64,000 nucleotides of DNA. It comes from a phage. Below the pieces are notes generated by a model. It was not told the DNA's origin. It did no database searches and was given only the letters and a program-made list of their open reading frames with translations. How positions within the stretch are numbered: the stretch's first letter is position 1; the number at the start of each line of letters is the position of its first letter. This document shows positions 26,629-44,201 of the stretch, piece after piece. The stretch lies in the NCBI GenBank assembly GCA_024875585.1, contig GCA_024875585.1_4107.1, one strand, 5' to 3'. The position numbers and the translations under genes were made by a program.

Positions 26629-26687
26629 TTGCAAACTATCTCAATTGGCGTATAATGTTTTACATCGAGAGCGGGAACACTTCCCGC
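26629..26687 (+). promoter_or_regulatory. early-type promoter + GGGAA/TTCCC leader hairpin
   Basis: aaAGTACTTGCAA-16nt-TATAAT(26651-56); hairpin gcgggaa-cac-ttcccgc 26671-87. Confidence 0.65.
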
Positions 26688-26711
26688 TGCACATAAAGAG
26701 AGATTAAAACG

Positions 26712-27074
26712 ATGGCTACTCAAATCAATAAAATTATTGCTAACCTGGTTAACTTCCGCGACGAGATGAAAGGTCTTCCGGCTGAAACGGTAAAAATTCA
26801 CATTTCAGCTTATCGGGAACTTATTGCAATGTTACCGCTTAAGCGTGAACAATACGCCGCTACCGTGATGCTTGATGCGATGATCCATAAGATGATCGCC
26901 AGTGATTTAACGATGGTTTATCAGTACATGGGCGAAAATTTCGCGGTGTCTGGTAAGCCAGTACCAGGGATGGCAACTACTGAGGAATTGCACGGTTTAA
27001 ATTTAAAACAAGATGCATGGGATAATATGCCTCGTTTCCTGGTATGGGCTGACAGTGGCAAAATTTACAAATAA
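26712..27074 (+). CDS. hypothetical protein (120 aa)
   Basis: clean ORF after promoter/hairpin; purine-rich SD agagag. Confidence 0.8.
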   Translation: MATQINKIIANLVNFRDEMKGLPAETVKIHISAYRELIAMLPLKREQYAATVMLDAMIHKMIASDLTMVYQYMGENFAVSGKPVPGMATTEELHGLNLKQDAWDNMPRFLVWADSGKIYK

Positions 27075-27088
27075 GTTTAATAAAGTAC

Positions 27089-27174
27089 TTGCATACTAAG
27101 TTAAAACAAGTATAATACTTTCTATCAGGTGCAACGGGAAGTTTTTAAACTTCCCTATAGGGGAATAGTTCCCC
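27089..27174 (+). promoter_or_regulatory. early-type promoter + tandem leader hairpins
   Basis: TTGCAT-16nt-TATAAT(27111-16); hairpin A gggaagtttttaaacttccc 27136-55; hairpin B ggggaa-tag-ttcccc 27160-74. Confidence 0.65.
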
Positions 27175-27195
27175 ACTATATAAGAGGATTAAAAA

Positions 27196-27435
27196 ATGGC
27201 TAAATCAAAAATGTTCTTAGGTCACAAAAACAAAACTCATTGGAATGTAAGCCTTTGGATTAATAACGATGAGTCATTGTACCGGTTGGCCCAGGACTTT
27301 ATTGCCGCCAACACTAATCGCAATGATGCGGCCCGTCATATGATGTTATTTTTAGAACAGACTGGACAAGATAAAACACCGGACGGATTCAAATATAGCA
27401 CTACTGCGATCCGTGCGGCGATGGTTGGAATGTAA
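27196..27435 (+). CDS. hypothetical small protein, paralog of 29228..29467
   Basis: GHKNKTHWNVSLWINNDESLYR...TPDGFKYSTTAIRAAMVGM shared with paralog. Confidence 0.85.
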   Translation: MAKSKMFLGHKNKTHWNVSLWINNDESLYRLAQDFIAANTNRNDAARHMMLFLEQTGQDKTPDGFKYSTTAIRAAMVGM

Positions 27436-27447
27436 TAGAATTTATTT

Positions 27448-27483
27448 AAAGTACTATCGCAAAAAATGATAGTACTTTATAAT
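27448..27483 (+). promoter_or_regulatory. promoter embedded in 11-bp inverted repeat
   Basis: AAAGTACTATC(27448-58)...GATAGTACTTT(27468-78) overlapping TATAAT(27478-83); weak -35 ATCGCA. Confidence 0.5.
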
Positions 27484-27520
27484 AGTGTTTTATTCATACA
27501 CCAACGATAAGGGCAACAGC

Positions 27521-27787
27521 ATGAATATTAAGTATTTTGCGACGCGTGAACAAGCTCGGAAGGCGGCGAAAGTGGAAGGTGCAACGTTTAAAGATATGGG
27601 CATACAATCGGAACGTGGTAAACGTTGGGCCATTGTAAAGCGTAGTACAGCCAGATCATTACAGTACTGGCTATCAGCTTTAAAAAGTCCTGATAGTGTA
27701 TCGCGTCGAGTGGTAGAAATAAAGCTCGACCGTAAGGGGAATCGTGTTACCGTGTACCGTACTAAAAAGATTGCAGTGCTTGAATAA
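27521..27787 (+). CDS. hypothetical small protein, paralog of 39641..40036
   Basis: MNIKYFATREQARKAAKVEGATFKDMG...DRKGNRVTVYRTKK shared pattern; ATG 27521. Confidence 0.8.
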   Translation: MNIKYFATREQARKAAKVEGATFKDMGIQSERGKRWAIVKRSTARSLQYWLSALKSPDSVSRRVVEIKLDRKGNRVTVYRTKKIAVLE

Positions 27788-27794
27788 AAAGTAC

Positions 27795-27853
27795 TTGCAA
27801 ACTATGTTTAATGGCGTATAATGTTTTACATCGAGAGCGGGAACACTTCCCGC
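27795..27853 (+). promoter_or_regulatory. early-type promoter + leader hairpin
   Basis: TTGCAA(27795-800)-16nt-TATAAT(27817-22); gcgggaa-cac-ttcccgc 27837-53. Confidence 0.65.
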
Positions 27854-27873
27854 CTATAACCTGGAGTAATAAA

Positions 27874-28104
27874 ATGACTAATATGTATATGACTGAAGTT
27901 AAAACCGTAAAAGATACTACCACTAATAAAACTACTTACTTACAGCGGATCTGTGGTGTATGGCAACGTATCAGCAAATCAAAGTACTTTAAATTAACAT
28001 CATATGCCAATCGTTCGGATTCATTCAGTACTGAAATAAAAGGTAATAAAGTACACCAATACGGCACTTATTATTATTATAGCCTGGCCGCGATTGCAGT
28101 ATAA
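27874..28104 (+). CDS. hypothetical small protein (76 aa)
   Basis: ATG 27874 after ctggag; the track start 27811 lies in the promoter. Confidence 0.7.
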   Translation: MTNMYMTEVKTVKDTTTNKTTYLQRICGVWQRISKSKYFKLTSYANRSDSFSTEIKGNKVHQYGTYYYYSLAAIAV

Positions 28105-28134
28105 GTAGTTTACAAATCTTTACAATTGCCGGTA

Positions 28135-28225
28135 TTGACTTAAAATGTCAGTACTGGCATAATGTATCTATTGAAACGAACAATTTGGCCCACGGGGTGC
28201 GGGAGTGTATCTATAGAAAAAGTAG
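28135..28225 (+). ncRNA. candidate small-RNA unit, rightward member of a convergent pair
   Basis: TTGACT(28135-40)-17nt-CATAAT(28158-63), then gtatctattgaaacgaacaatttggCCCACGGGGTGCGGGAGTGTATCtatag; no ORF. Confidence 0.35.
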
Positions 28226-28308
28226 TTTAGTACAGTTACAATTGTGCACCCGGTGGGTTAGCTGTTGTCATGGGATATATTATACCAGTACTGGATAGTG
28301 CTGTCAAT
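28226..28308 (-). ncRNA. candidate small-RNA unit, leftward member of a convergent pair
   Basis: minus reading TTGACA(28308-03)-18nt-TATAAT(28284-79), then atatcccatgacaacagctaaCCCACCGGGTGCacaattg. Confidence 0.35.
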
Positions 28309-28352
28309 ACCTTTTTACTATTCAGTACTGAAAACTATTTGATAAAAAGTAC

Positions 28353-28380
28353 TTGCAAACTATGTTTAAAGGCGTATAAT
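28353..28380 (+). promoter_or_regulatory. early-type promoter driving structured leader
   Basis: TTGCAA(28353-58)-16nt-TATAAT(28375-80); upstream ttcagtactgaa palindrome. Confidence 0.6.
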
Positions 28381-28386
28381 GTTTTA

Positions 28387-28466
28387 CATCAGGACGGGGA
28401 ATGAAATAAGTAACTTCCCGTTAAGTAGCCCAGGAGTAAGGCATACGAAAAACTCCCCTGATAAAA
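28387..28466 (+). ncRNA. structured leader / candidate RNA motif (three-way junction), copy 1
   Basis: P1 atcagg/cctgat, P2 acgggga/ttcccgt, P3 ggagt/actcc, helices abutting; near-identical copy at 38447. Confidence 0.45.
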
Positions 28467-28470
28467 TAGT

Positions 28471-28498
28471 TTGACAATTGTTTTTAAAAGCGTATAAT
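28471..28498 (+). promoter_or_regulatory. second sigma70-type promoter after the structured leader
   Basis: TTGACA(28471-76)-16nt-TATAAT(28493-98). Confidence 0.55.
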
Positions 28499-28530
28499 AC
28501 TTACATCAACTACTGAATGAGGGTTACAAA

Positions 28531-29142
28531 ATGAAAACTATCACTACTACTACTTATGTTATGGATTTTTCTGAATTGAACGCAGAACAAAAAACGTCAG
28601 CTATCGAACTGGTTCGGGAACGTGAAAAAAACTTAAACGACGATTATTTTTCTGAAAGTGAAATTGAATACTATAAAGAAACAGTATTGCCGGAATATGG
28701 CATTAATGAAGCTGAAATACAATTCAGTGGTTTTTGGTCGCAGGGTGACGGTGCATCAATTAGTACTGACCACGTTGACGCAGTGAAGTTTTTACGTAAG
28801 GTAAGAGCATTAACTAAGTATCGCTCAATCCGTCACCTGCTGAATGAAGATGATTTGGCGATGAGTGTAAAGCGTTCTCACTCCCGCTACTCACATGAGA
28901 ACACTGTAAGCGGGTACATTGAATCGGCTTACACTGATTTAACCGCAAAACAAGAAACGTTAGTTAATGAGCTTGAGGAACTACTCACTGATACTATTCG
29001 TGAATTATCCCGCAAGTTGTACCGTGATTTAGAAAATGCATATGAGGATCAATTCACTACTGAAAACATCGTATCACTGATTGAGGGTAACGAATATCAA
29101 TTCAATGTTATTGATGGCGTAGTAGAATCAATTGCATATTAA
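28531..29142 (+). CDS. hypothetical acidic protein (203 aa)
   Basis: SD tgaggg; contains FSGFWSQGDGASISTD motif that I cannot place in a family. Confidence 0.85.
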   Translation: MKTITTTTYVMDFSELNAEQKTSAIELVREREKNLNDDYFSESEIEYYKETVLPEYGINEAEIQFSGFWSQGDGASISTDHVDAVKFLRKVRALTKYRSIRHLLNEDDLAMSVKRSHSRYSHENTVSGYIESAYTDLTAKQETLVNELEELLTDTIRELSRKLYRDLENAYEDQFTTENIVSLIEGNEYQFNVIDGVVESIAY

Positions 29143-29149
29143 AAAGTAC

Positions 29150-29209
29150 TTGCAAACTAAGTTTAAAAGCGTATAATACTTTATATCGAGGCGGGGAATG
29201 GTTCCCCGC
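29150..29209 (+). promoter_or_regulatory. early-type promoter + leader hairpin
   Basis: TTGCAA(29150-55)-16nt-TATAAT(29172-77); gcggggaa-tgg-ttccccgc 29191-209. Confidence 0.65.
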
Positions 29210-29227
29210 TCAAACGAGGATTTAAAA

Positions 29228-29467
29228 ATGGCTAGTACTAAAACTTACAACGGACACAAAAACAAAACTCATTGGAATGTAAGCCTTTGGATCAATAACG
29301 ATGAATCATTGTACCGGATTGCTCAAAATTGCATCGCTCAAAGTAAAACGAAAGATATTGCAGCGGAATTTATGTACCGCAGATTAAAAGCCAACGGTAT
29401 TACTACAACGCCGGACGGATTCAAGTATAGCACTACGGCGATCCGTGCTGCAATGGTTGGAATGTAA
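29228..29467 (+). CDS. hypothetical small protein, paralog of 27196..27435
   Basis: ATG 29228 after cgagga; NGHKNKTHWNVSLWINNDESLYR...AIRAAMVGM. Confidence 0.85.
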   Translation: MASTKTYNGHKNKTHWNVSLWINNDESLYRIAQNCIAQSKTKDIAAEFMYRRLKANGITTTPDGFKYSTTAIRAAMVGM

Positions 29468-29486
29468 TATTCAGTACTATAACAAT

Positions 29487-29506
29487 GGCGGGGAATAGTT
29501 CCCGCC
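29487..29506 (+). promoter_or_regulatory. GGGAA/TTCCC hairpin between genes
   Basis: ggcggggaa-tag-ttcccgcc followed by ttta. Confidence 0.45.
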
Positions 29507-29524
29507 TTTACTAAGGGTTATCTA

Positions 29525-29806
29525 ATGAGTAAAGTAATAAAGTACAATGTGTTAAGCAAATCATTGTCTATCAGTGAATGCACCGATGGTTTTTGGCTGT
29601 ACGATGAAACGCGTGGCATGAATTTAGCTATGCAGGAGAAAACTGCTGATGCGGCATATCTTAAAGCACTGGAATACTACCAGAAGCGTTTAACGGAAGT
29701 AGAAAACGATTATAATAACCTTAAAGCGAAAGTGGATAATTTCGTTGGTCAATTCGTTGACGATGACGAGGGGCACTACTGCGACCGTTGTGGATCTTAC
29801 AGTTAA
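29525..29806 (+). CDS. hypothetical protein (93 aa)
   Basis: SD taaggg; C-terminal HYCDRCGSYS. Confidence 0.75.
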   Translation: MSKVIKYNVLSKSLSISECTDGFWLYDETRGMNLAMQEKTADAAYLKALEYYQKRLTEVENDYNNLKAKVDNFVGQFVDDDEGHYCDRCGSYS

Positions 29807-29823
29807 GTACTAAGGATTATATA

Positions 29824-30027
29824 ATGAGTGATTTAATTGAACGTATCAAAGAGCTTGAAGAAAAAGAATTGCAGTTGATCGGTTTACAGAATAAAATCTA
29901 TCATGATTTGGGGAGTTTTATCAATGCGTGGGATAATGGCGATCCTGATGCGTTACCTGCTAACCGCCAGGCAATGATCAATGATGTGCGTGGTGTCTTT
30001 GAGTATGTTTTAAAGCAATTAAATTAA
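29824..30027 (+). CDS. hypothetical small protein (67 aa, coiled-coil-like)
   Basis: ATG 29824 after taagga. Confidence 0.7.
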   Translation: MSDLIERIKELEEKELQLIGLQNKIYHDLGSFINAWDNGDPDALPANRQAMINDVRGVFEYVLKQLN

Positions 30028-30036
30028 AAAAAGTAC

Positions 30037-30096
30037 TTGCAATTAGTTTTTAGTACTGTATAATGTTTTACATAGAGGGGAGAAATGGTTCTCCCT
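30037..30096 (+). promoter_or_regulatory. early-type promoter + leader hairpin
   Basis: AGTACTTGCAA-16nt-tAGTACTGTATAAT(30059-64); aggggagaa-atgg-ttctccct 30076-96. Confidence 0.65.
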
Positions 30097-30114
30097 GGTA
30101 ATGAGGAAAATACA

Positions 30115-30336
30115 ATGGCTAATATCACTACTCTTTCTCAACTGGAAGCACTGGTTAAATCTATGCGGGAACATGCCGACAAAATCGGCGTAAAAGATCC
30201 AGCCGTTTGCTTCTGCGACGAAATGAATGATGATACATTGGTAATAGCAGAAGTTCAGGACGTTTCTAACTATTCATCGCGTTACACTGGCGGCGTAGCA
30301 AATAAAGGTGACTTCTGTTTATACCTTACAAAATAA
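30115..30336 (+). CDS. hypothetical small protein (73 aa)
   Basis: ATG 30115 after tgaggaa. Confidence 0.75.
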   Translation: MANITTLSQLEALVKSMREHADKIGVKDPAVCFCDEMNDDTLVIAEVQDVSNYSSRYTGGVANKGDFCLYLTK

Positions 30337-30341
30337 CAACG

Positions 30342-30368
30342 AGGGGATCAATTGATCCCCTTTCTTTT
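30342..30368 (+). terminator. intrinsic terminator
   Basis: aggggatca-at-tgatcccct + tttcttttt. Confidence 0.7.
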
Positions 30369-30371
30369 TCA

Positions 30372-30469: not shown

Positions 30470-30502
30470 CAACTATTTTTCAAATACTTTTTATTAAAAT
30501 AC

Positions 30503-30556
30503 TTGCAATTAGTTTTTAAACGCGTATAATGTTTTGCATAGGGGGAGCGGTTCCCC
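30503..30556 (+). promoter_or_regulatory. early-type promoter + leader hairpin
   Basis: TTGCAA(30503-08)-16nt-TATAAT(30525-30); gggga-gcggt-tcccc 30541-56. Confidence 0.6.
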
Positions 30557-30577
30557 TGGTAACTAAGGAATAAGAAA

Positions 30578-30831: not shown

Positions 30832-30888
30832 TTGACTATGTATTACAGTACTGTATAATAGATACATAAGGGGCGAATAGTTTGCCCC
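30832..30888 (+). promoter_or_regulatory. sigma70-type promoter + leader hairpin
   Basis: TTGACT(30832-37)-16nt-TATAAT(30854-59); ggggcgaa-tag-tttgcccc 30870-88. Confidence 0.6.
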
Positions 30889-30908
30889 TAGTACAAAGGG
30901 GAAACATT

Positions 30909-31139: not shown

Positions 31140-31145
31140 GTACAT

Positions 31146-32345: not shown

Positions 32346-32573
32346 ATGGCTATCGTAATCACTCGCGTAACTGGTACTACTGGCACTGCTTCAACTGTTG
32401 CTGTAATTACTAATAAGAAAGGTGCAGAATTACATTTTGCAATGGATAAATGGGCCGTTAATGAGTTTGGTCAGTGGGCAAGTGTAGAATACATTGAAAC
32501 CTATCAAGTGCCATCGATTAGCTTAACTGATTTAGGTGTAGAACGTATCCTTTGTCTGGATGAATTAAATTAA
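32346..32573 (+). CDS. hypothetical small protein (75 aa)
   Basis: SD tagga; MAIVITR.. N-terminus like 32886 and 35841. Confidence 0.75.
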   Translation: MAIVITRVTGTTGTASTVAVITNKKGAELHFAMDKWAVNEFGQWASVEYIETYQVPSISLTDLGVERILCLDELN

Positions 32574-32581
32574 AAAAGTAC

Positions 32582-32642
32582 TTGCAAAGTAAATCGAATA
32601 AAGTATAATACATTACATCAAGGGGAGAAAATGGTTCTCCCC
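32582..32642 (+). promoter_or_regulatory. early-type promoter + leader hairpin
   Basis: TTGCAA(32582-87)-16nt-TATAAT(32604-09); ggggagaa-aatgg-ttctcccc 32622-42. Confidence 0.65.
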
Positions 32643-32660
32643 ACTAAGAGGAAACTAAAA

Positions 32661-32804
32661 ATGAAAACTTGTCAATGTGGTAAAAAATCTATTACTGGTT
32701 TGAAACGGGGCGTTTCACTTTGCCAGTACCATTATAATTTACAAGTATGGGGTAAAGAATGGGCCGACCAGGTTGAAGCATCAAAGAAAGCAAAAAGTAA
32801 GTAA
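32661..32804 (+). CDS. hypothetical Cys-rich small protein (47 aa; below cutoff)
   Basis: ATG 32661 after aagagga; MKTCQCGKK...SLCQYHYN. Confidence 0.55.
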   Translation: MKTCQCGKKSITGLKRGVSLCQYHYNLQVWGKEWADQVEASKKAKSK

Positions 32805-34204: not shown

Positions 34205-34414
34205 ATGCTTACTGTACAGGATAAGATCGACATCTTAAAGGTTAATATGTATGTGATTGATGCAGATCCTGAAAAAGTATTTGCATACGATGATTCTAAT
34301 CGTAGTCCTTTTTATTGTAGTCATGTAGTTGGATATGTGCCGTTATCGTATGTTATCGAAAGAGTGGTTGATTCAGCATACAAACATTTTTTAGAAAATA
34401 GTACTTGCAATTAG
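34205..34414 (+). CDS. hypothetical protein (69 aa)
   Basis: in-train ORF; its 3' end overlaps the next promoter. Confidence 0.65.
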   Translation: MLTVQDKIDILKVNMYVIDADPEKVFAYDDSNRSPFYCSHVVGYVPLSYVIERVVDSAYKHFLENSTCN

Positions 34415-34464
34415 TTTTTAGTACTGTATAATGTTTTACATGAAGGGGGGAAATGATTCTCCCC
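34405..34464 (+). promoter_or_regulatory. early-type promoter + leader hairpin
   Basis: TTGCAA(34405-10)-16nt-TATAAT(34427-32); gggggaaa-tga-ttctcccc 34445-64. Confidence 0.6.
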
Positions 34465-34482
34465 AATAACAGGAGAAACAAA

Positions 34483-35002: not shown

Positions 35003-35061
35003 TTGTAAACTATGTTTAAAGGCGTATAATGTTTTACATCGAGAGCGGGAAACGGTTTCCC
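35003..35061 (+). promoter_or_regulatory. early-type promoter + leader hairpin
   Basis: TTGTAA(35003-08)-16nt-TATAAT(35025-30); gggaaa-cgg-tttccc 35047-61. Confidence 0.6.
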
Positions 35062-35082
35062 CTAGTAATAAGGAATAAAATC

Positions 35083-35438: not shown

Positions 35439-35528
35439 TTGACAATAGATTATAGTACTGTATAATAGTTTACATCAAGGGCGACGGGAAGTTTTAAAAA
35501 CTTCCCTATAGGGAGAATAGTTCTCCCC
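35439..35528 (+). promoter_or_regulatory. sigma70-type promoter + tandem leader hairpins
   Basis: TTGACA(35439-44)-16nt-TATAAT(35461-66); hairpin A 35486-506, hairpin B gggagaa-tag-ttctcccc 35511-28. Confidence 0.65.
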
Positions 35529-37261: not shown

Positions 37262-37318
37262 TTGACAGTACTATCAGATAGTGTATAATGTTTTACATAG
37301 AGGGGAAACATCTTCCCC
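37262..37318 (+). promoter_or_regulatory. sigma70-type promoter + leader hairpin
   Basis: TTGACA(37262-67)-16nt-TATAAT(37284-89); ggggaa-acatc-ttcccc 37302-18. Confidence 0.65.
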
Positions 37319-37336
37319 TACTAAGAGGAAATGAAA

Positions 37337-37532: not shown

Positions 37533-37622
37533 TTGCAATTAGTTTTTAGTACTGTATAATAGTTTACATGAAAGGCAACGGGAAGTTTAAAAACTTCCCT
37601 AAAGGGGGAAATGATTCTCCCC
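37533..37622 (+). promoter_or_regulatory. early-type promoter + tandem leader hairpins
   Basis: TTGCAA(37533-38)-16nt-TATAAT(37555-60); hairpin A 37580-99; hairpin B 37604-22. Confidence 0.65.
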
Positions 37623-37860: not shown

Positions 37861-37920
37861 TTGTGTAGTATAGAAAATAAAGTATAATGTTTAATACAGG
37901 AAGGGGAATAGTTCCCCTCC
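37861..37920 (+). promoter_or_regulatory. early-type promoter + leader hairpin
   Basis: TTGTGT(37861-66)-16nt-TATAAT(37883-88); ggaaggggaa-tag-ttcccctcc 37899-920. Confidence 0.6.
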
Positions 37921-37939
37921 TAACAAAAAGGAAAGTAAC

Positions 37940-38412: not shown

Positions 38413-38440
38413 TTGCATTGTACTTAGAATCAAGTATAAT
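38413..38440 (+). promoter_or_regulatory. early-type promoter driving structured leader
   Basis: TTGCAT(38413-18)-16nt-TATAAT(38435-40). Confidence 0.6.
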
Positions 38441-38446
38441 GTTTTA

Positions 38447-38526
38447 CATCAGGACGGGGAACGAAATAAGTAAATCCCTGTTAAGTAGCCCAGGAGTAAG
38501 GCATACGAAAAACTCCCCTGATAAAA
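38447..38526 (+). ncRNA. structured leader / candidate RNA motif (three-way junction), copy 2
   Basis: same P1/P3 as copy 1; P2 acgggga/tccctgt re-pairs with a shifted G-U. Confidence 0.45.
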
Positions 38527-38530
38527 TAGT

Positions 38531-38559
38531 TTGACAATAATTTTAAGTACTGATAAAAT
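38531..38559 (+). promoter_or_regulatory. second promoter after structured leader
   Basis: TTGACA(38531-36)-17nt-TAAAAT(38554-59). Confidence 0.45.
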
Positions 38560-38870: not shown

Positions 38871-38931
38871 TTGACAAAGTATCTTAGTACTGTATAATAG
38901 TTTACATCAAGTGAGGGGAATGGTTCCCCTC
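38871..38931 (+). promoter_or_regulatory. sigma70-type promoter + leader hairpin (cassette copy 1 of 3)
   Basis: TTGACA(38871-76)-16nt-TATAAT(38893-98); gaggggaa-tgg-ttcccctc 38913-31. Confidence 0.65.
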
Positions 38932-39138: not shown

Positions 39139-39200
39139 TTGACAAAGTATCTTAGTACTGTATAATAGTTTACATCAAGTGAGGGGAAACGGTTCCCCTC
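39139..39200 (+). promoter_or_regulatory. sigma70-type promoter + leader hairpin (cassette copy 2 of 3)
   Basis: TTGACA(39139-44)-16nt-TATAAT(39161-66); gaggggaa-acgg-ttcccctc 39181-200. Confidence 0.65.
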
Positions 39201-40378: not shown

Positions 40379-40407
40379 ATATCTATACCAACACGGAGAG
40401 AAACAAA

Positions 40408-40626: not shown

Positions 40627-40655
40627 TTGACAGTACTCAAATATTTTAGTACTAT
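40627..40655 (+). promoter_or_regulatory. sigma70-type promoter (duplicate of 40350)
   Basis: TTGACA(40627-32)-17nt-TACTAT(40650-55). Confidence 0.5.
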
Positions 40656-40682
40656 ATCTATACCAACACAGGAAAAAACAAA

Positions 40683-41267
40683 ATGCGTAATTATACTAAA
40701 TTCATCCGTACACTGTCAGAAATGGAAACCAACAAAGAGATCTTGACAGCTTGTCGGTTAGCTGGTCTGGAGATCATCGGTGCGGGGTCTTCCCGTATTG
40801 TATTCGCTTTAAATGATCGGTTAGTGATTAAGGTCGCGAATTGTGATGCAGGTGTAGAACAAAATGAAACAGAATGTAAAGTATGGAATTTTTTAGATTA
40901 TGACCGCCCTCAGTTGAAACAGTTCTTTGCTAAAGTACATATGCATTTAAGCGATCCTGATAATATGTTTATTGTTATGGATCGGTTGAGTACTGCAAGT
41001 AAAGGCAGTGTAAAGCACGTTAATGCGTGCAACGAATTAAAGTACAATATTAAACGTAATGCCATTGAACGCCAACACCGCTTTGCTGATGCACTACAAC
41101 ACGTAGATGATACATTATCAACACTAACGATTAGAGATATCAGAAAACAGAATATCGGCCAGGATCGAAATGGACTGATTAAAGTACTTGATTATGGTTT
41201 AACCCGCAATATCTGGAATCAGTACTATAAAAAGCGTGATGTAGCAGCAAGTAAGGTAACACGATAA
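40683..41267 (+). CDS. atypical minimal protein-kinase-fold protein
   Basis: GAGSSRIVFALNDRLVIKVAN (G-loop + VIK Lys), IRDIRKQNIG (D-x-x-x-x-N), KVLDYGL (DFG-like). Confidence 0.65.
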   Translation: MRNYTKFIRTLSEMETNKEILTACRLAGLEIIGAGSSRIVFALNDRLVIKVANCDAGVEQNETECKVWNFLDYDRPQLKQFFAKVHMHLSDPDNMFIVMDRLSTASKGSVKHVNACNELKYNIKRNAIERQHRFADALQHVDDTLSTLTIRDIRKQNIGQDRNGLIKVLDYGLTRNIWNQYYKKRDVAASKVTR

Positions 41268-41280
41268 AAAAGATTAAAAA

Positions 41281-41314
41281 AGGGATTGACTCCGGTCAGT
41301 CCCTTTGCTATTAT
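41281..41314 (+). promoter_or_regulatory. bifunctional terminator hairpin / promoter
   Basis: agggattgac-tccg-gtcagtccct; TTGACT(41286-91)-17nt-TATTAT(41309-14). Confidence 0.6.
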
Positions 41315-41320
41315 ATATTC

Positions 41321-41375
41321 ATTGAGAGATAACTCACTGACCCATAGGGTGCGGGAGTGTATCTATTATATAAGT
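41321..41375 (+). ncRNA. candidate short transcript with CCCAC-type core
   Basis: attcattgagagataactcactgaCCCATAGGGTGCGGGAGTGTATCtattatataag; core 41341-52. Confidence 0.35.
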
Positions 41376-41407
41376 ATTGAGTACTGAAAACTATTTTTAA
41401 AAAGTAC

Positions 41408-41468
41408 TTGCAATGTACTTAGAATCAAGTATAATGTTTTATATCGAGAGGGGGAAATGGTTCTCCCC
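41408..41468 (+). promoter_or_regulatory. early-type promoter + leader hairpin
   Basis: TTGCAA(41408-13)-16nt-TATAAT(41430-35); gggggaaa-tgg-ttctcccc 41450-68. Confidence 0.6.
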
Positions 41469-41489
41469 AATACAATAAGGAATAAAATC

Positions 41490-41711
41490 ATGACTACAAT
41501 GACTTGCATTTACGCTTCCAATCTTCTGAATGATGCGGCCTTTAATGTTGATTCAGAATATCAATGTTATCGGGATGAAAATAAAAAAGTTTTTGTAGTT
41601 GATAATAATGGTTTCCATATTGAATTGCAATCCGGCTTCACTGGCGTTGATGGTAAATCAGTATGGGGCGTACAGGATGATAAAGGTACATATCATTTTA
41701 AACGTAATTAA
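41490..41711 (+). CDS. hypothetical small protein (73 aa)
   Basis: ATG 41490 after taagga. Confidence 0.75.
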   Translation: MTTMTCIYASNLLNDAAFNVDSEYQCYRDENKKVFVVDNNGFHIELQSGFTGVDGKSVWGVQDDKGTYHFKRN

Positions 41712-41714
41712 GTA

Positions 41715-41804
41715 TTGACAAAGTATCTTAGTACTGTATAATAGTTTACATCAAGGGCAACGGGAAGTTTTTAAAACTTCCCTATAGGGAGAATAGATCT
41801 CCCC
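41715..41804 (+). promoter_or_regulatory. sigma70-type promoter + tandem leader hairpins (cassette copy 3 of 3)
   Basis: TTGACA(41715-20)-16nt-TATAAT(41737-42); hairpin A 41762-82; hairpin B 41787-804. Confidence 0.65.
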
Positions 41805-41826
41805 GATACTAAAAGGAAACAAAAAT

Positions 41827-42099
41827 ATGTCTAGCTACTCCGCTACTATGATCATTAAAGATATGAACGGTAATCCTACTGCTGCTGGTGGATCATTTGG
41901 AAACATTAACTTAGATGGTCGGTTAACCATGCAATCAGCCATCAATGCAGCGAAAGAAGTTTTTAAGAATGAATGCACTGTAAGTAAGCTGGATTATATG
42001 GGATTCGCTATCGAGAAAACTAATCGTTTTGTGAACTACAAAAATCCACTGATGATTGATACCAACCTGAAAGCTAACGAAGTGGAATACTTATTATGA
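41827..42099 (+). CDS. hypothetical protein (90 aa)
   Basis: SD aaagga. Confidence 0.8.
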   Translation: MSSYSATMIIKDMNGNPTAAGGSFGNINLDGRLTMQSAINAAKEVFKNECTVSKLDYMGFAIEKTNRFVNYKNPLMIDTNLKANEVEYLL

Positions 42100-42287
42100 C
42101 AGTTGAAGAAGTTAAAAAAGTACTGGCAGTTCTACGCTATCATAATCATTGCAAGGTGAAGAATGATCCTGATTATCTTGATTCATCCCTTGAGGAAGAC
42201 ACATTAAACGCAATAAGCTATATGCAAACATTATTAAAACGTATGACCGAAAAGAATAGACCGGACTATATCGGAAATAAAATTTAA
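42096..42287 (+). CDS. hypothetical small protein (63 aa)
   Basis: ATGA overlap with upstream gene. Confidence 0.7.
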   Translation: MTVEEVKKVLAVLRYHNHCKVKNDPDYLDSSLEEDTLNAISYMQTLLKRMTEKNRPDYIGNKI

Positions 42288-42294
42288 AAAGTAC

Positions 42295-42355
42295 TTGCAT
42301 TGTAGTTAGATTAACGTATAATGTTTTATATCGAGAGGGGAAATGGTTTCCCCTC
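42295..42355 (+). promoter_or_regulatory. early-type promoter + leader hairpin
   Basis: TTGCAT(42295-300)-16nt-TATAAT(42317-22); gaggggaaa-tgg-tttcccctc 42335-55. Confidence 0.65.
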
Positions 42356-42373
42356 AAGTCCAGGAGATACACA

Positions 42374-42637
42374 ATGAACACTATCGAAATCACTATCAAT
42401 GCTCACGTATACGACAACGTAGTACTGCAAACTACTATGACCGCTAATGATACCAGAACTTTGCGGAATACTGTTATAAGTGCCGTATGTGCTGCAATTG
42501 GTGATGTATCCCTGGAAAATGCAGAACATATCAACAACGGTTTCACTATGTGCAAACGTGATAACGCAAAACATATCATCGTAGAAGGTTACGGCGGTGT
42601 AGAATATAATCTTTATATGAAAAAAGTACTTGCATAG
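42374..42637 (+). CDS. hypothetical protein (87 aa)
   Basis: SD caggag; 3' end overlaps next promoter. Confidence 0.8.
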   Translation: MNTIEITINAHVYDNVVLQTTMTANDTRTLRNTVISAVCAAIGDVSLENAEHINNGFTMCKRDNAKHIIVEGYGGVEYNLYMKKVLA

Positions 42638-42686
42638 TAACTAAAACAAAGTATAATGTTTTGCATAGGGGGAGATATCCTCCCCC
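42629..42686 (+). promoter_or_regulatory. early-type promoter + leader hairpin
   Basis: TTGCAT(42629-34)-17nt-TATAAT(42652-57); gggggag-atatc-ctccccc 42668-86. Confidence 0.6.
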
Positions 42687-42704
42687 ACTAAAAGGAGTAC
42701 TAAA

Positions 42705-42929
42705 ATGGCTAACTTTGATGAACTGATGCGGGAAGTAGCTACCCTGGCAGAAGAGAAGAAATCATTTGATTCTATCTATAACACCTCTTACCGTGATTCA
42801 GTACTGGCATGTAACCAGGATCAAAAAGATGAACTAATCGCCACCTATCATGAAGCGTGGAAGTATTACCGCCAATGGGAGAAAGAAGAAAGTGAGTCTA
42901 CCATTGACGGCCTCAATAATCTAATCTAA
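42705..42929 (+). CDS. hypothetical acidic small protein (74 aa)
   Basis: SD aaaggag. Confidence 0.8.
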   Translation: MANFDELMREVATLAEEKKSFDSIYNTSYRDSVLACNQDQKDELIATYHEAWKYYRQWEKEESESTIDGLNNLI

Positions 42930-42934
42930 AGTTT

Positions 42935-42976
42935 TATTTCAGTACTATTGACATAGATTGATAGTACTGATATGAT
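42935..42976 (+). repeat. promoter cassette, partial copy 4 of 4
   Basis: tttCAGTACTATTGACAtagattgATAGTACTGatatgat; TTGACA 42948-53 -17nt- TATGAT 42971-76. Confidence 0.55.
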
Positions 42977-43004
42977 AACTTTACTAACTACAAGGGGAAA
43001 CATC

Positions 43005-43262
43005 ATGGAACAATTCACACAATATCGGGTAAATCCTCAAGCTATGGCATACGTAGAAGACCATAAAACGTTACCAGTACAAACACCAATTAAAGGCCAT
43101 ATCTATCGTGCAATGTCATGGAATCCGGCCCAGGATGGCTATAAAACCGTAGCCGTGGGTATGTACTGCGGTAATGGTGAATGGTTTGATCCTAACAATC
43201 CGATTGCACTTGATAGTACTGAAAAAATGAAATGGGCCGACTACATCGAAGATATTTCATAA
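43005..43262 (+). CDS. hypothetical protein (85 aa)
   Basis: ATG 43005 after aagggga. Confidence 0.75.
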   Translation: MEQFTQYRVNPQAMAYVEDHKTLPVQTPIKGHIYRAMSWNPAQDGYKTVAVGMYCGNGEWFDPNNPIALDSTEKMKWADYIEDIS

Positions 43263-43269
43263 AAATTAT

Positions 43270-43330
43270 TTGACAGTACTAACCAGTAATGTATAATGTT
43301 TTACATAGAGCGGGGGAATAGTTCTCCCGC
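43270..43330 (+). promoter_or_regulatory. sigma70-type promoter + leader hairpin
   Basis: TTGACA(43270-75)-16nt-TATAAT(43292-97); gcgggggaa-tag-ttctcccgc 43310-30. Confidence 0.65.
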
Positions 43331-43352
43331 CAATAGTTTGGAGTAAAACATT

Positions 43353-43553
43353 ATGTCTATCGCTATCGCCCTGGTCGAAGTACTGAAAGAAGCTAAAGCC
43401 AACCTTATCGATGTACAGATTAAGGAATTGCAAAATGGCTTAATCGGCTGTACTTGTACCGCTGGTGGCCCGTCAGACTATCGGGAATTCGAATCACTTG
43501 AATCGATGGTCCGTTATCTTACAATCATCGTAGAAGATTGGAGAATCATCTAA
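43353..43553 (+). CDS. hypothetical small protein (66 aa)
   Basis: SD tggag. Confidence 0.75.
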   Translation: MSIAIALVEVLKEAKANLIDVQIKELQNGLIGCTCTAGGPSDYREFESLESMVRYLTIIVEDWRII

Positions 43554-43571
43554 CAAAAAAAAAGAATAAAA

Positions 43572-43605
43572 AGGGATTGACTCCGGTCAGTCCCTTTGCT
43601 ATTAT
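43572..43605 (+). promoter_or_regulatory. bifunctional terminator hairpin / promoter
   Basis: agggattgac-tccg-gtcagtccct; TTGACT(43577-82)-17nt-TATTAT(43600-05). Confidence 0.6.
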
Positions 43606-43611
43606 ATACGC

Positions 43612-43670
43612 ATAGACAAAAACTAGCCCACAGGGTGCATAGGTGTATCTAAAATATATAGTTAATAACG
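43612..43670 (+). ncRNA. candidate short transcript with CCCAC-type core (diverged 3' half)
   Basis: cgcatagacaaaaactagCCCACAGGGTGCATAGGTGTATCtaaaatat; core 43627-38. Confidence 0.3.
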
Positions 43671-43716
43671 GTGAGTAACCATCTGCTGGTGGAGTGAAAA
43701 CTATTAATAAAAAGTA

Positions 43717-43745
43717 TTGACAAAGTATATCAGTACTGCAATAAT
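43717..43745 (+). promoter_or_regulatory. sigma70-type promoter
   Basis: TTGACA(43717-22)-17nt-AATAAT(43740-45), cagtactg in spacer. Confidence 0.5.
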
Positions 43746-43799
43746 GTATCTCGTAGGGCGGCAATGGTGCGACGGCCCACAAAGTTAGGAGATACACAA

Positions 43800-44132
43800 A
43801 TGAGTACTTCAATCGCTATCGTTAAAGCTTTCATCCGTACCAACGTTTCATCTGTATTCATTGACGGATTGGATCGGGAAGTAGAATACTCAATCATTAT
43901 CGCACAAACGGCAAACGGTGCTCGGTACATCCTTAATGATAGTGAAGCAAATCACTACTACTTCACTAAAGCCACTGGCTTTAAACGCATCGATGCTGAT
44001 GTAGTATACGCTAAGATGAATAAGCTGGTAGATAAGATTAACACTAAAGGTACTATCGATTTACAGTACTGGACCGAAACCGATCCAGAATATGGATCTC
44101 ACCGCTACCTGAATCCAGGTATTAAAATGTAA
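43800..44132 (+). CDS. hypothetical protein (110 aa)
   Basis: ATG 43800 after taggag. Confidence 0.8.
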   Translation: MSTSIAIVKAFIRTNVSSVFIDGLDREVEYSIIIAQTANGARYILNDSEANHYYFTKATGFKRIDADVVYAKMNKLVDKINTKGTIDLQYWTETDPEYGSHRYLNPGIKM

Positions 44133-44139
44133 AAAGTAC

Positions 44140-44201
44140 TTGTGTAGCACTTAGATTTAAGTATAATGTTTTTCATAGAGAGGGGGAAATGGTTCTCCCT
44201 C
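44140..44201 (+). promoter_or_regulatory. early-type promoter + leader hairpin
   Basis: TTGTGT(44140-45)-16nt-TATAAT(44162-67); gagggggaaa-tgg-ttctccctc 44180-201. Confidence 0.6.

What the first reader, a model, noticed from the sequence alone, without database searches (positions are those of the whole stretch)
26629..44201. Conserved GGGGAA-N(3-5)-TTCCCC hairpin at the 5' end of more than 20 early transcripts
Nearly every promoter in the 26.6-44.2 kb block is followed, about 8-15 nt after the expected +1, by a short GC-rich hairpin. Its stem sequence is conserved and its loop is variable.

Examples:
- gcgggaa-cac-ttcccgc (26671, 27837)
- gcggggaa-tgg-ttccccgc (29191)
- ggggagaa-aatgg-ttctcccc (32622)
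- ggggaa-acatc-ttcccc (37302)
- gaggggaa-tgg-ttcccctc (38913)
- gggggag-atatc-ctccccc (42668)
- gcgggggaa-tag-ttctcccgc (43310)

Four promoters (27089, 35439, 37533, 41715) carry a tandem pair: acGGGAAGtttttaaaCTTCCCt followed by the standard hairpin.

The SD and ATG follow 10-20 nt later.

A conserved stem sequence, rather than just a conserved structure, suggests one of three things:
- recognition by a protein, either an RNA-binding regulator or a DNA-binding dimer acting on a +10 to +30 palindromic operator
- a 5'-terminal stabiliser against 5'-end-dependent decay
- a pause or attenuation signal

The stems (6-9 bp) are too short for classical RNase III sites. Most lack a T-run, so they are not simple terminators.
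Basis: partly seen in the sequence, partly recalled or inferred. Interest (0 to 1): 0.65.

Follow-up and report, generated by a model that had tools for sequence, protein, structure and literature searches.

The report
Stem-loop in phage early-gene expression cassettes
A short G-then-C RNA hairpin sits in the 5' leader of about two dozen small early genes of a jumbo coliphage, as one part of a copied and recombining promoter-hairpin-ribosome-site cassette; this is a variant of regulatory cassettes already described in T4-like phages, and its exact job is untested.

Summary
The window is the early region of an Asteriusvirus-type jumbo coliphage. Between 26.6 and 44.2 kb, 24 near-consensus sigma-70 promoters are followed by a GGGGRA-loop-TYCCCC hairpin. 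That is 22 of 29 exact-TATAAT promoters, against 0.4-1.8% of random 48-mers (p~1e-32).

- About 14 further promoters in the block have no hairpin.
- The hairpin starts 7-17 nt after the -10 hexamer, about +1 to +10.
- It sits at a near-fixed ~9 nt before the SD.

The evidence points to an RNA structure:
- G.U 12 versus A.C 0 in the inner six pairs.
- Compensatory changes at every stem position.
- Loops of 3-5 nt (one of 6) with no common sequence.
- No T-run.
- No predicted effect on RBS accessibility.

The stem sequence looks conserved mainly because the whole cassette (UP/promoter, ATCGAGAGGG-type start, hairpin, ACTAATTAAGG, ATG) is a repeated, recombining module. Gene indels relative to phage A4 are bounded by cassettes, and orthologous genes carry different hairpins. 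The cassette also occurs in Munch-like jumbo phages, Vequintavirinae and Phapecoctavirus.

Closest known are the PeSLs of T4-like phages, whose stem-loop lies inside the promoter, and the 5' hairpins of T7 A1 and phi10 transcripts.

Most likely role: an mRNA-end protecting leader hairpin. This is inferred, not shown.

The parts
26629..26688 (+). Cassette: promoter 26629-26656, hairpin AGCGGGAA-cac-TTCCCGCT 26670-26688, ATG 26712
27089..27174 (+). Tandem cassette: promoter 27089-27116, upstream hairpin 27136-27155 (GGGAAGTT-ttta-AACTTCCC), standard hairpin GGGGAA-tag-TTCCCC 27160-27174, ATG 27196
27795..27853 (+). Cassette: promoter 27795-27822, hairpin GCGGGAA-cac-TTCCCGC 27837-27853, ATG 27874
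28353..28422 (+). Promoter 28353-28380 with a long-loop variant hairpin, GACGGGGA-14 nt-TTCCCGTT, at 28393-28422. It lies in a non-coding leader of about 85 nt that runs into a second promoter at 28471.
29150..29210 (+). Cassette: promoter 29150-29177, hairpin GGCGGGGAA-tgg-TTCCCCGCT 29190-29210, ATG 29228
29487..29506 (+). Promoter-less copy, GGCGGGGAATAGTTCCCGCC, 18 nt before ATG 29525. The A4 ortholog has a promoter. The window carries a gene inserted between two hairpin copies.
30037..30096 (+). Cassette: promoter 30037-30064, hairpin GGGGAGAA-atgg-TTCTCCCT 30077-30096, ATG 30115
30503..30558 (+). Cassette: promoter 30503-30530, hairpin 30539-30558 (GGGGGA-gcgg-TTCCCC core), ATG 30578
30832..30889 (+). 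Cassette: promoter 30832-30859, hairpin AGGGGCGAA-tag-TTTGCCCCT 30869-30889 (one G.U pair), ATG 30909. This cassette is absent upstream of the A4 ortholog.
32582..32642 (+). Cassette: promoter 32582-32609, hairpin GGGGAGAA-aatgg-TTCTCCCC 32622-32642, ATG 32661. The same cassette is found at 92-95% identity in Vequintavirinae phages.
34405..34464 (+). Cassette: promoter 34405-34432, hairpin GGGGGGAA-atga-TTCTCCCC 34445-34464 (one G.U pair), ATG 34483
35003..35063 (+). Cassette: promoter 35003-35030 (-35 hexamer TTGTAA), weakest hairpin GGGAAA-cgg-TTTCCC 35047-35061, ATG 35083
35439..35527 (+). Tandem cassette: promoter 35439-35466, upstream hairpin 35486-35506, standard hairpin GGGAGAA-tag-TTCTCCC 35511-35527, ATG 35549
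37262..37319 (+). Cassette: promoter 37262-37289, hairpin AGGGGAA-acatc-TTCCCCT 37301-37319, ATG 37331 or 37337
37533..37621 (+). Tandem cassette: promoter 37533-37560, upstream hairpin 37580-37599, standard hairpin GGGGGAA-atga-TTCTCCC 37604-37621 (one G.U pair), ATG 37641
37861..37921 (+). Cassette: promoter 37861-37888 (-35 hexamer TTGTGT), hairpin 37898-37921 (GGGGAA-tag-TTCCCC core), ATG 37940. This cassette is absent upstream of the orthologs in A4 and 121Q.
38413..38482 (+). Promoter 38413-38440 with a long-loop variant hairpin at 38453-38482, in a non-coding leader ahead of the second promoter at 38531
38871..38931 (+). Cassette: promoter 38871-38898, hairpin GAGGGGAA-tgg-TTCCCCTC 38913-38931, ATG 38953
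39139..39200 (+). Cassette: promoter 39139-39166, hairpin GAGGGGAA-acgg-TTCCCCTC 39181-39200, ATG 39222
41408..41467 (+). Cassette: promoter 41408-41435, hairpin GGGGGAA-atgg-TTCTCCC 41450-41467 (one G.U pair), ATG 41490
41715..41803 (+). Tandem cassette: promoter 41715-41742, upstream hairpin 41762-41782, standard hairpin GGGAGA-ataga-TCTCCC 41787-41803, ATG 41827
42295..42355 (+). Cassette: promoter 42295-42322, hairpin GAGGGGAAA-tgg-TTTCCCCTC 42335-42355, ATG 42374. The A4 ortholog has a different hairpin in front of an identical SD region.
42630..42686 (+). Cassette: promoter 42630-42657, hairpin GGGGGAG-atatc-CTCCCCC 42668-42686, ATG 42705
43270..43330 (+). Cassette: promoter 43270-43297, hairpin GCGGGGGAA-tag-TTCTCCCGC 43310-43330 (one G.U pair), ATG 43353
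44140..44201 (+). Cassette: promoter 44140-44167 (-35 hexamer TTGTGT), hairpin GAGGGGGAA-atgg-TTCTCCCTC 44180-44201 (one G.U pair), ATG 44222
4076..4133 (+). Outlying cassette outside the reported interval: promoter 4076-4103, hairpin GGGGATGA-acttc-TCATCCCT 4113-4133 in the same position but with a different stem sequence

Best explanation
The hairpin is an RNA stem-loop in the 5' untranslated leader. It is one part of a repeated early-gene expression cassette.

Cassette layout, 5' to 3':
- an A-rich UP-like tract;
- a near-consensus sigma-70 promoter;
- the transcription start at a conserved A, 8 nt after the -10;
- a purine-rich initial transcribed sequence (ATCGAGAGGG / ATAGAGGGG / ATCAAGGGG);
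- a 6-9 bp stem with the G-rich arm first and the C-rich arm second;
- an ACTAATTAA spacer;
- SD and ATG.

Shown:
- The hairpin exists and is non-random.
- The constraint acts on the sense strand at the RNA level.
- It has no terminator tail.
- It folds on its own without touching the ribosome-binding site.
- It has the same position and start sequence as the T7 A1 leader.
- The cassette is duplicated about 24 times here, is shared with other phage families, and bounds gene indels.

Inferred: the stem sequence looks conserved because the cassettes share ancestry and keep recombining, with changes passing through G.U intermediates. A protein reading the sequence is not needed to explain it.

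Inferred function: the stem-loop protects mRNA ends.
- On the cassette's own transcript it leaves only about 3-5 unpaired 5' nucleotides. That would hinder RppH and the 5'-end-dependent entry of RNase E, as the ompA, papA and T7 gene 10 5' stem-loops do.
- On read-through transcripts from the gene upstream it would act as a 3' exonuclease barrier.

The cassette homology also makes these sites junctions for swapping small early genes.
For: Existence and enrichment:
- (22 of 29 promoters against <=1.8% background, p~1e-32).

RNA-level, sense-strand constraint:
- In the inner six pairs of 42 distinct stems, G.U occurs 12 times and A.C or C.A never, although the detector treated both alike.
- + strand folds are more stable than - strand folds wherever wobble pairs occur.
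- All 8 pairs show changes on both sides: 45 such cells against 10.7 +/- 2.6 in shuffles, with a sharp drop when partners are slid.
- 96 G-first against 2 C-first hairpins follow promoters across the window and fetched loci.

Not a terminator:
- Mean 2.3 T in the 8 nt after the hairpin, longest T-run 3.
- The + strand terminator scan called no promoter-proximal leader hairpin, while a different terminator family with T-runs serves the same region.

Autonomous module:
- Predicted unpaired probability of SD to AUG is 0.67 with the hairpin and 0.66 with it deleted.
- Hairpin-less leaders are the same leader minus the hairpin.

Start site:
- T7 A1 is annotated with +1 at 498. Its sequence is GATACT, then 7 nt, then A(+1)TCGAGAGGG. 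That is identical over 10 nt to the cassette start and sits at the same distance from the -10.
- The T7 A1 5' end also folds into a G-first stem (z = -5.0).
- The T7 phi10 leader starts with the hairpin GGGAGACC/GGUUUCCC.

Cassette recombination:
- Window versus A4 breakpoints fall at 27131|27160, 29206/29487 and 30860|30892.
- Cassette-length overlaps lie at 34395-34469 and 41710-41757.
- Orthologous genes with 90-97% identical starts carry different hairpins, or no cassette.

Distribution:
- A4, 121Q, Munch, IMG/VR jumbo contigs, Vequintavirinae A73 and Phapecoctavirus nepoznato.

Literature:
- 5' stem-loop stabilisers are listed in the review PMC3997798 (Emory 1992; Bouvet & Belasco 1992; Arnold 1998).
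Against: - There are no transcript-end or half-life data for any of these phages, so the start site is inferred.
- The predicted unpaired 5' tail is usually 3-5 nt and can reach 9. In the four tandem leaders the first hairpin starts about 12 nt from +1. By my recollection of the ompA work, protection needs no more than about 2-4 unpaired nucleotides, so many copies are borderline.
- About 40% of promoters in the block do without the hairpin.
- The hairpin-to-SD distance is at least as tightly fixed as the hairpin-to-promoter distance. That hints the element may matter for translation initiation or for the RBS region rather than for the 5' end.
- Covariation was counted on hairpins that were found by their pairing, and many copies are related, so the statistics are inflated.
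- The five or so independent G.U types give only modest support on their own.
Confidence: 0.5

Rival explanations
1. The hairpin is an attenuator, pause or weak terminator, which is the PeSL authors' view of their stem-loops. It would damp read-through from the many upstream promoters, or prematurely end a fraction of the cassette's own transcripts, setting the dose of each small early gene.
For: - The stem-loop of PeSL211/210 of RB49 lowered downstream lacZ about as much as rrnB T1 (PMC2839356).
- Premature termination in 5' UTRs is common in Pseudomonas phages (42 sites, PMC10914365).
- Only about 9 canonical terminators serve about 38 promoters in this block.
- True terminators at 30341 and 40059 have stems of the same type.
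Against: - No leader hairpin is followed by a T-run. The flank is A-rich, ACTAA.
- The phage uses separate, canonical T-run terminators where it terminates.
- The hairpin lies downstream of its own promoter, so it would attenuate that promoter too and could not shield it from occlusion.
- In RB49 the stem-loop sits between the -35 and -10 and is therefore not in the promoter's own transcript.
Confidence: 0.15
2. The hairpin is an RNA binding site for a trans-acting factor. A phage early protein or nuclease, or a host protein, would recognise the hairpin and switch off, process or activate the hairpin-bearing subset of early mRNAs together.
For: - The G-run and C-run core and the purine-first polarity are kept in 96 of 98 promoter-proximal GGG/CCC hairpins.
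- The A-to-G change that gives GGGGGAA/TTCTCCC lengthens the G-run at the cost of a G.U pair.
- Only a subset of promoters carries the hairpin, which would suit a separately regulated class.
- The distance to the SD is fixed.
Against: - Loop length and sequence vary freely: 3-5 nt and one of 6; ATGG, TAG, ACATC, ACAAC, CAC and others.
- Every stem position changes.
- The same gene carries quite different hairpins in sister phages, including GCGGC/GCCGC in A73.
- No candidate binding protein was identified.
- Polarity is what transitions through G.U from one ancestor would give without any reader.
Confidence: 0.12
3. The hairpin is a by-product or masking element. The purine-rich start (ATCGAGAGGGG) would be selected at the DNA level for promoter escape. 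The C-rich arm would then exist only to sequester that SD-like G-tract. Alternatively, the hairpin is simply carried along as part of the recombining cassette, with homology for gene shuffling as its only consequence.
For: - The start sequence is identical to the first 10 nt of the T7 A1 transcript.
- 5' arms contain GGAG or GAGG.
- Indel junctions fall in or next to the hairpins.
- PeSL recombination and mini-circles are documented in PMC2839356.
Against: - Hairpin-less promoters in the same block start with ATCAAGACAAC and need no G-tract.
- Pairing is maintained across very different stem sequences. That is not expected of a passenger.
Confidence: 0.12
4. The element is a palindromic DNA operator for a dimeric repressor or activator acting at about +5 to +25.
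For: - The sequences are near-perfect inverted repeats close to the start site.
Against: - Spacing between half-sites varies from 3 to 5 bp, 6 in one copy, and 14 in the two long-loop variants.
- Half-site sequences covary instead of staying fixed.
- Imperfections are G.T, never A.C, an asymmetry that has no meaning for duplex DNA.
Confidence: 0.03

Closest known systems
PeSLs (promoter-early stem-loops) of T4-like phages RB49/phi1, PST/T4 and nt-1/KVP40 (Arbiol et al. 2010, PMC2839356; Comeau et al. 2014, PMC4122927)
   Same: - Both are composite intergenic cassettes: an AT-rich tract, a strong sigma-70-type promoter, a Gn-loop-Cn stem-loop with G.T pairs, then SD and ATG.
- Both are repeated many times in regions full of small ORFans.
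- In both, gene indels between close relatives are bounded by the cassettes.
   Different: - In RB49 the stem-loop (AGGGGATC-N-GATCCCCT) lies between the -35 and -10, or overlaps them. It is therefore not in the promoter's own transcript, and the leader has no hairpin.
- Here it always lies after the inferred start, about 9 nt before the SD, with no T-rich tail.
- There is no BLAST-level similarity to RB49 cassettes.
- The phages here are not T4-like.
- The terminator activity and mini-circles reported for PeSLs were not tested.
5' leaders of T7 transcripts: early promoter A1 and late promoter phi10 (gene 10 leader)
   Same: - T7 A1 starts at an A 8 nt after the -10, with the same first 10 nt (ATCGAGAGGG), and its 5' end folds into a G-first stem.
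- T7 phi10 has an 8-bp hairpin GGGAGACC/GGUUUCCC at the 5' end, followed by an A/U-rich spacer and the SD. The stretch ACGGTTTCCC(T)CTAG(A)AATAA resembles window 35045.
- From memory, the phi10 stem-loop was reported to stabilise the gene 10 mRNA (Mertens et al. 1996).
   Different: - The phi10 hairpin starts exactly at +1 and is made by T7 RNA polymerase.
- The A1 structure is longer and more irregular.
- Neither T7 leader is a multi-copy cassette.
5'-terminal stem-loop stabilisers of E. coli mRNAs (ompA, papA)
   Same: A short stable hairpin close to the 5' end of an mRNA, followed by a single-stranded A/U-rich segment and the RBS (references listed in PMC3997798).
   Different: From memory, those hairpins need no more than about 2-4 unpaired 5' nucleotides. 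Here the inferred tail is mostly 3-5 nt and reaches 9-12 in some copies. No stability data exist for these phages.
Intrinsic terminators and 5'-UTR premature terminators of phages
   Same: A GC-rich short hairpin in a leader. Stems resemble the window's own terminators at 30341 and 40059. 5'-UTR terminators are frequent in Pseudomonas phages (PMC10914365).
   Different: There is no U-tract after any promoter-proximal leader hairpin.
Lambda-type nut sites (boxA + boxB hairpin)
   Same: A small promoter-proximal RNA hairpin.
   Different: There is no conserved loop. boxA-like sequence is not enriched (34 matches against 27.6 expected) and none lies beside a leader hairpin.

Membership tests
PeSL (promoter-early stem-loop cassette) | AT-rich upstream tract plus a sigma-70-type early promoter | tested here: met
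   aaaaaGTAC-TTGCAA/TTGACA-N16-TATAAT in 29 copies within the block
PeSL (promoter-early stem-loop cassette) | Adjacent stable Gn-loop-Cn stem-loop with occasional G.T pairs | tested here: met
   24 copies at -9 to -15.5 kcal/mol, with G.T pairs present
PeSL (promoter-early stem-loop cassette) | SD and start codon of a small ORF at the 3' end, repeated in a hyperplastic ORFan region | tested here: met
   The ATG lies 16-23 nt after the hairpin (one predicted case at 11). The ORFs are mostly 57-134 aa hypothetical proteins.
PeSL (promoter-early stem-loop cassette) | Indels and replacements between close relatives are bounded by the cassettes | tested here: met
   Window versus A4 breakpoints and cassette-length overlaps. 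Cassette swaps upstream of orthologous genes.
PeSL (promoter-early stem-loop cassette) | Stem-loop placed within or upstream of the promoter, or just before the start site, so that it acts on upstream transcription | tested here: not met
   Here it lies 7-17 nt after the -10, downstream of the inferred +1. In RB49 it lies between the -35 and -10.
PeSL (promoter-early stem-loop cassette) | Stem-loop acts as an efficient terminator; cassette pairs form mini-circles | not testable with these tools
   Needs reporter assays and inverse PCR. The lack of a T-run argues against termination.
5'-terminal mRNA stabiliser hairpin (ompA / T7 gene 10 type) | Stable hairpin within a few nucleotides of the 5' end of the primary transcript | tested here: inconclusive
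   The inferred tail is 3-5 nt in most copies (distance modes 11 and 13 from the -10), but up to 9 nt, and 12 nt for the tandem type. The +1 is inferred from the T7 A1 analogy.
5'-terminal mRNA stabiliser hairpin (ompA / T7 gene 10 type) | Structure rather than sequence is what is conserved | tested here: met
   All 8 pairs covary and 93.8% of cells are paired. Orthologs carry different stems.
5'-terminal mRNA stabiliser hairpin (ompA / T7 gene 10 type) | Lengthens mRNA half-life in an RppH / RNase E dependent way | not testable with these tools
   Needs rifampicin-chase experiments
Intrinsic (rho-independent) terminator | GC-rich hairpin directly followed by a U-tract | tested here: not met
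   The + strand scan called no promoter-proximal leader hairpin. The longest T-run after 87 leaders is 3.
Palindromic DNA operator | Fixed half-site sequence and fixed spacing | tested here: not met
   Spacing varies from 3 to 5 bp, with single copies at 6 and 14. Half-sites covary. G.T occurs 12 times and A.C never.
nut / boxB antitermination site | Conserved loop read by an N-type protein, plus an adjacent boxA | tested here: not met
   25 different loops. boxA is not enriched and not adjacent.
Any curated RNA family (Rfam 15) | Match at the gathering score | tested here: not met
   No match anywhere in the window

The most novel reading that the evidence does not exclude
The hairpin is the address tag of a regulon. 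A factor shared by several families of large virulent coliphages, or a host factor they exploit, would recognise the G-first stem at a fixed distance from the SD. It would then coordinately stabilise, silence or cleave the hairpin-bearing ~60% of immediate-early mRNAs. That would define two temporal or dosage classes of early genes and would explain why the purine-first polarity is kept in 96 of 98 promoter-proximal GGG/CCC hairpins.
Probability: 0.1. Interest if true: 0.7.

Novelty: new variant of a known kind. Interest (0 to 1): 0.4.

Why it matters
- The region is probably among the first DNA expressed after infection. In related phages the homologous cassettes lie inside the ~20 kb direct terminal repeat. 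It holds dozens of unknown host-takeover genes.
- A standard promoter-hairpin-RBS module helps annotation. It fixes true start codons, transcription units and gene boundaries in more than 50 related genomes that are currently annotated only as 'hypothetical protein'.
- It extends the PeSL idea of recombining regulatory cassettes from T4-like phages to jumbo Asteriusvirus, Munch-like phages, Vequintavirinae and Phapecoctavirus. This includes near-identical cassette-plus-gene units shared between unrelated phage families.
- It offers a natural library of strong, compact 5' UTR parts, and a simple experimental system for asking what a promoter-proximal hairpin does.

Tried and rejected
1. **Loop ATG as an alternative start codon.** In the window, 8 of 9 loop ATGs are in frame and open to the ORF. 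Across 28 distinct leaders only 15 are, and orthologs differ by 1-2 nt in spacing. Rejected as not conserved.
2. **Hairpin sequestering or freeing the RBS.** Predicted SD-AUG accessibility is the same with and without the hairpin, 0.67 against 0.66. Rejected.
3. **Intrinsic terminator.** No T-run follows the hairpins. Rejected for the sense strand. The antisense flank also has none.
4. **nut/boxB.** No boxA and no loop consensus. Rejected.
5. **Known RNA family or tRNA-like element.** None found.
6. **DNA operator.** Rejected on variable spacing, covariation and the G.T versus A.C asymmetry.
7. **Published description.** I searched for one in Asteriusvirus, rV5 and CBB papers. They report only RpoD-like promoters and terminators and do not mention the hairpin.
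8. **Transcriptome data.** No TSS or transcriptome data for these phages turned up in the library.
9. **Not done.** No covariance model was built, because the RNAfold scan of both strands already listed all copies.

Full report
**What the window is.** Megablast of 26-34 kb finds Asteriusvirus jumbo coliphages (A4, G17, PBECO4, 121Q and others, about 350 kb) at 89-95% identity, in a mosaic pattern. The 26.6-44.2 kb block is a run of small + strand ORFs with no assigned function. In related phages whose ends are mapped, the homologous cassettes lie inside or next to a ~20 kb direct terminal repeat (features under H35 and H73; PMC13070987). By position and by its sigma-70 promoters, this is the early, host-takeover region. 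That reading is an inference.

**Checking the observation.**
- All listed hairpins are present.
- GGGAA-N3-5-TTCCC occurs 11 times against 0.11 expected.
- A promoter scan finds 29 exact TTGNNN-N16-18-TATAAT promoters on the + strand in the block. Of these, 22 carry a G-first/C-second hairpin within 48 nt.
- The same hairpin type occurs in 1.8% of random 48-mers of the window, and 0.4% outside leaders (p = 8e-33).
- Two more promoters (28353, 38413) have a long-loop version, giving 24.
- The four tandem leaders are confirmed.
- A similar hairpin with a different stem sits behind the promoter at 4076.

- Five TATAAT promoters and about nine promoters of an extended -10 or variant class have short, hairpin-less leaders. 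About 60% of promoters carry the hairpin, not nearly all.
- A hairpin-less leader is the same leader without the hairpin. Compare catcaag-aca-ACTAAGAGGAAA with catcaa-[hairpin]-ACTAAGAGGAAA.
- The hairpin starts 13 +/- 2.4 nt after the -10 hexamer, and the ATG follows 19 +/- 2.6 nt after it.
- In 87 distinct leaders from the window and relatives, the flank after the hairpin reads ACTAATTAA followed by purines at +9 to +12. The distance to the SD is therefore nearly fixed. The distance from the -10 has modes at 11 and 13 and ranges from 9 to 17.

**Where transcription starts (inferred).**
- A conserved Y-A-T lies 7-9 nt after the -10.
- The T7 A1 promoter is annotated with +1 at nt 498. Its sequence is GATACT, then 7 nt, then A(+1)TCGAGAGGGACACGG.
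- The cassettes read TATAAT-gttttac-ATCGAGAGGGGG or ATCGAGAGCGGG. That is the same spacing and the same first ten nucleotides.
- This places +1 at that A and leaves about 3-5 unpaired nucleotides before most hairpins. The range is 1-9, and it is 12 for the first hairpin of the tandem leaders.

**RNA or DNA?**
- The hairpin detector accepted G.T and A.C mismatches equally. Even so, the inner six pairs of 42 distinct stems contain 12 G.T, no A.C and no C.A.
- Wherever wobble pairs occur, the + strand fold is more stable than the - strand fold by 1-4.5 kcal/mol.
- All eight scored pairs show changes on both sides. There are 45 such cells against 10.7 +/- 2.6 in shuffles, 93.8% of cells are paired, and pairing drops sharply when partners are slid.
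- The changes are almost all transitions (A-U, G.U, G-C). This keeps purines in the 5' arm. It is what descent from one ancestor under RNA-level selection would give.
- It also accounts for the polarity: 96 G-first against 2 C-first hairpins behind promoters.
- Caveat: the stems were found by their pairing and many are related, so these numbers overstate the independent evidence. About five independent types of G.U are present.
- Loops are 3-5 nt (one of 6) with 25 different sequences. Together with the G.T asymmetry, this argues against a dimeric DNA operator and against loop-specific recognition.

**What it is not.**
- No Rfam family or tRNA matches.
- It is not an intrinsic terminator. The flank is A-rich, the longest T-run is 3, and the + strand scan called no promoter-proximal leader hairpin. 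The region has its own terminators with T-runs: AAAGGGATTGACTCCGGTCAGTCCCTTT, AGCCCAC...GTGGGCT, and 30341 and 40059.
- It is not an RBS switch. Deleting the hairpin in silico leaves SD-AUG accessibility unchanged, 0.67 against 0.66.
- It is not a nut site.
- The loop ATG, in frame with the ORF in 8 of 9 window cases, is not conserved in orthologs.

**The hairpin is part of a recombining cassette.**
- Collinear blocks between the window and phage A4 break at the cassettes: 27131|27160, 29206/29487 and 30860|30892.
- Cassette-length overlaps occur at 34395-34469 and 41710-41757, where A4 has extra genes.
- The promoter-less hairpin at 29487 has a promoter in A4. In the window, a gene has been inserted between two hairpin copies.
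- Orthologous genes whose first 120 nt are 90-97% identical carry different cassettes. Examples:
  - GCGGGAA-cac-TTCCCGC against GTGGGGAA-tac-TTCCCCAC.
  - Four different hairpins upstream of the 35549 gene in four phages.
  - Cassettes present in the window but absent in A4, at 30869 and 37898.
- So hairpins turn over mainly by cassette exchange, yet a hairpin is usually retained.
- The same architecture occurs in these phages:
  - the Salmonella jumbo phage Munch, 8 copies in 22 kb against 0.04 expected;
  - uncultivated jumbo contigs;
  - Vequintavirinae phage A73, with 92-95% identity over cassette plus gene start in six such phages;
  - Phapecoctavirus nepoznato.

**Comparison with known systems.**
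- The closest described system is the PeSL of T4-like phages. It is an AT-rich tract, a sigma-70 promoter, a Gn-loop-Cn stem-loop, then SD and ATG. It is repeated in hyperplastic ORFan regions, mediates modular shuffling, and its stem-loop is proposed and partly shown to terminate upstream transcription (PMC2839356, PMC4122927).
- I looked at RB49 itself. There the stem-loop AGGGGATC-N-GATCCCCT lies between the -35 and -10, and the leader has no hairpin.
- The window's element shares the cassette logic and the evolutionary behaviour. It fails the positional feature and lacks terminator anatomy.
- Functionally it looks more like the 5' hairpins of T7 transcripts. The phi10 leader starts with GGGAGACC/GGUUUCCC followed by an A/U-rich spacer and the SD. 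The A1 5' end also folds, with z = -5.0.
- It also resembles the ompA-type 5' stabilisers (references in PMC3997798).
- The papers I checked on Asteriusvirus, rV5 and CBB report promoters and terminators but not this hairpin.

**Mechanism.**
- Most likely (about 0.5): a leader stem-loop that protects mRNA ends. On the cassette's own transcript it would hinder 5'-end-dependent decay. On read-through RNA from the gene upstream it would act as a 3' barrier. Its sequence similarity would come from cassette ancestry and recombination.
- The steps shown are structure, strand, position, lack of terminator features, independence from the RBS, cassette behaviour and distribution.
- The stabilising effect itself is inferred. 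It is weakened by 5' tails that are often longer than the 2-4 nt I recall as the limit for ompA-type protection, and by the equally tight coupling to the SD.
- Rivals:
  - attenuation or pausing (0.15);
  - a trans-acting RNA-binding factor (0.12);
  - a masking or passenger element of the cassette (0.12);
  - a DNA operator (0.03).

**Verdict.** It is best filed as a variant of known promoter/stem-loop cassettes with a T7-like leader hairpin. It is moderately interesting: useful for annotation and as an experimental handle, but not a new kind of system.

Noticed in passing
whole window, densest 21-31 kb (e.g. 26551, 28149, 28286, 30370): The 8-bp palindrome CAGTACTG occurs 46 times against 0.75 expected. 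AGTACT also lies in many promoter spacers (TAGTACTGTATAAT) and at the UP/-35 junction (AAAGTACTTGCAA). This may be a protein or modification site.
   Followed up: partly
window + strand 28135, 34870, 38278, 41286, 43577; - strand 26174, 26391, 28307, 30469: Nine small promoter-driven units without ORFs carry CCCAYNGGGTGC(GGGAGTGTATC) about 25 nt after the -10, inside a predicted hairpin. Units 28135(+) and 28307(-) converge and overlap. These are candidate multi-copy small or antisense RNAs. Rfam has no match.
   Followed up: partly
window 1340, 5852, 9250, 10532, 34863, 38270, 41279, 43570 (+): A conserved terminator hairpin, AAAGGGATTGACTCCGGTCAGTCCCTTT, contains the -35 hexamer TTGACT of the next promoter (TTGACT-N17-TATTAT or TATAAT). 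This is a true overlapping terminator/promoter composite. G.U pairs make it more stable on the + strand.
   Followed up: partly
window 28353-28498 and 38413-38559: A promoter is followed by a structured non-coding leader of about 85 nt (a long-loop hairpin plus CAGGAG...CTCCCCTG), then a second promoter just before the gene. The unit is conserved in A4 and in the unrelated Vequintavirinae phage A73. It could be a leader RNA or small RNA.
   Followed up: partly
window 32566-32780; L001 (A73) 3001-3283: An early gene with its cassette is shared at 92-95% nucleotide identity (cassette) between ~350 kb Asteriusvirus and ~140 kb Vequintavirinae phages. This suggests recent exchange of early-gene cassettes between phage families.
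   Followed up: partly
window leaders after promoters 32050, 36048, 36834, 39568: Several hairpin-less leaders carry TTAACTTAAC or TTAACTAAC upstream of the SD. From memory, this resembles the T7 gene 10 'epsilon' enhancer UUAACUUUAA. It may be an alternative leader module.
   Followed up: no
window 29198, 30085, 32631, 34453, 38920, 41457, 44189 (loop ATGs): ATG triplets in the hairpin loops are in frame and open to the downstream ORF in 8 of 9 cases. ORF finders therefore start genes inside the hairpin. The feature is not conserved in relatives, so these are probably mis-called starts.
   Followed up: yes
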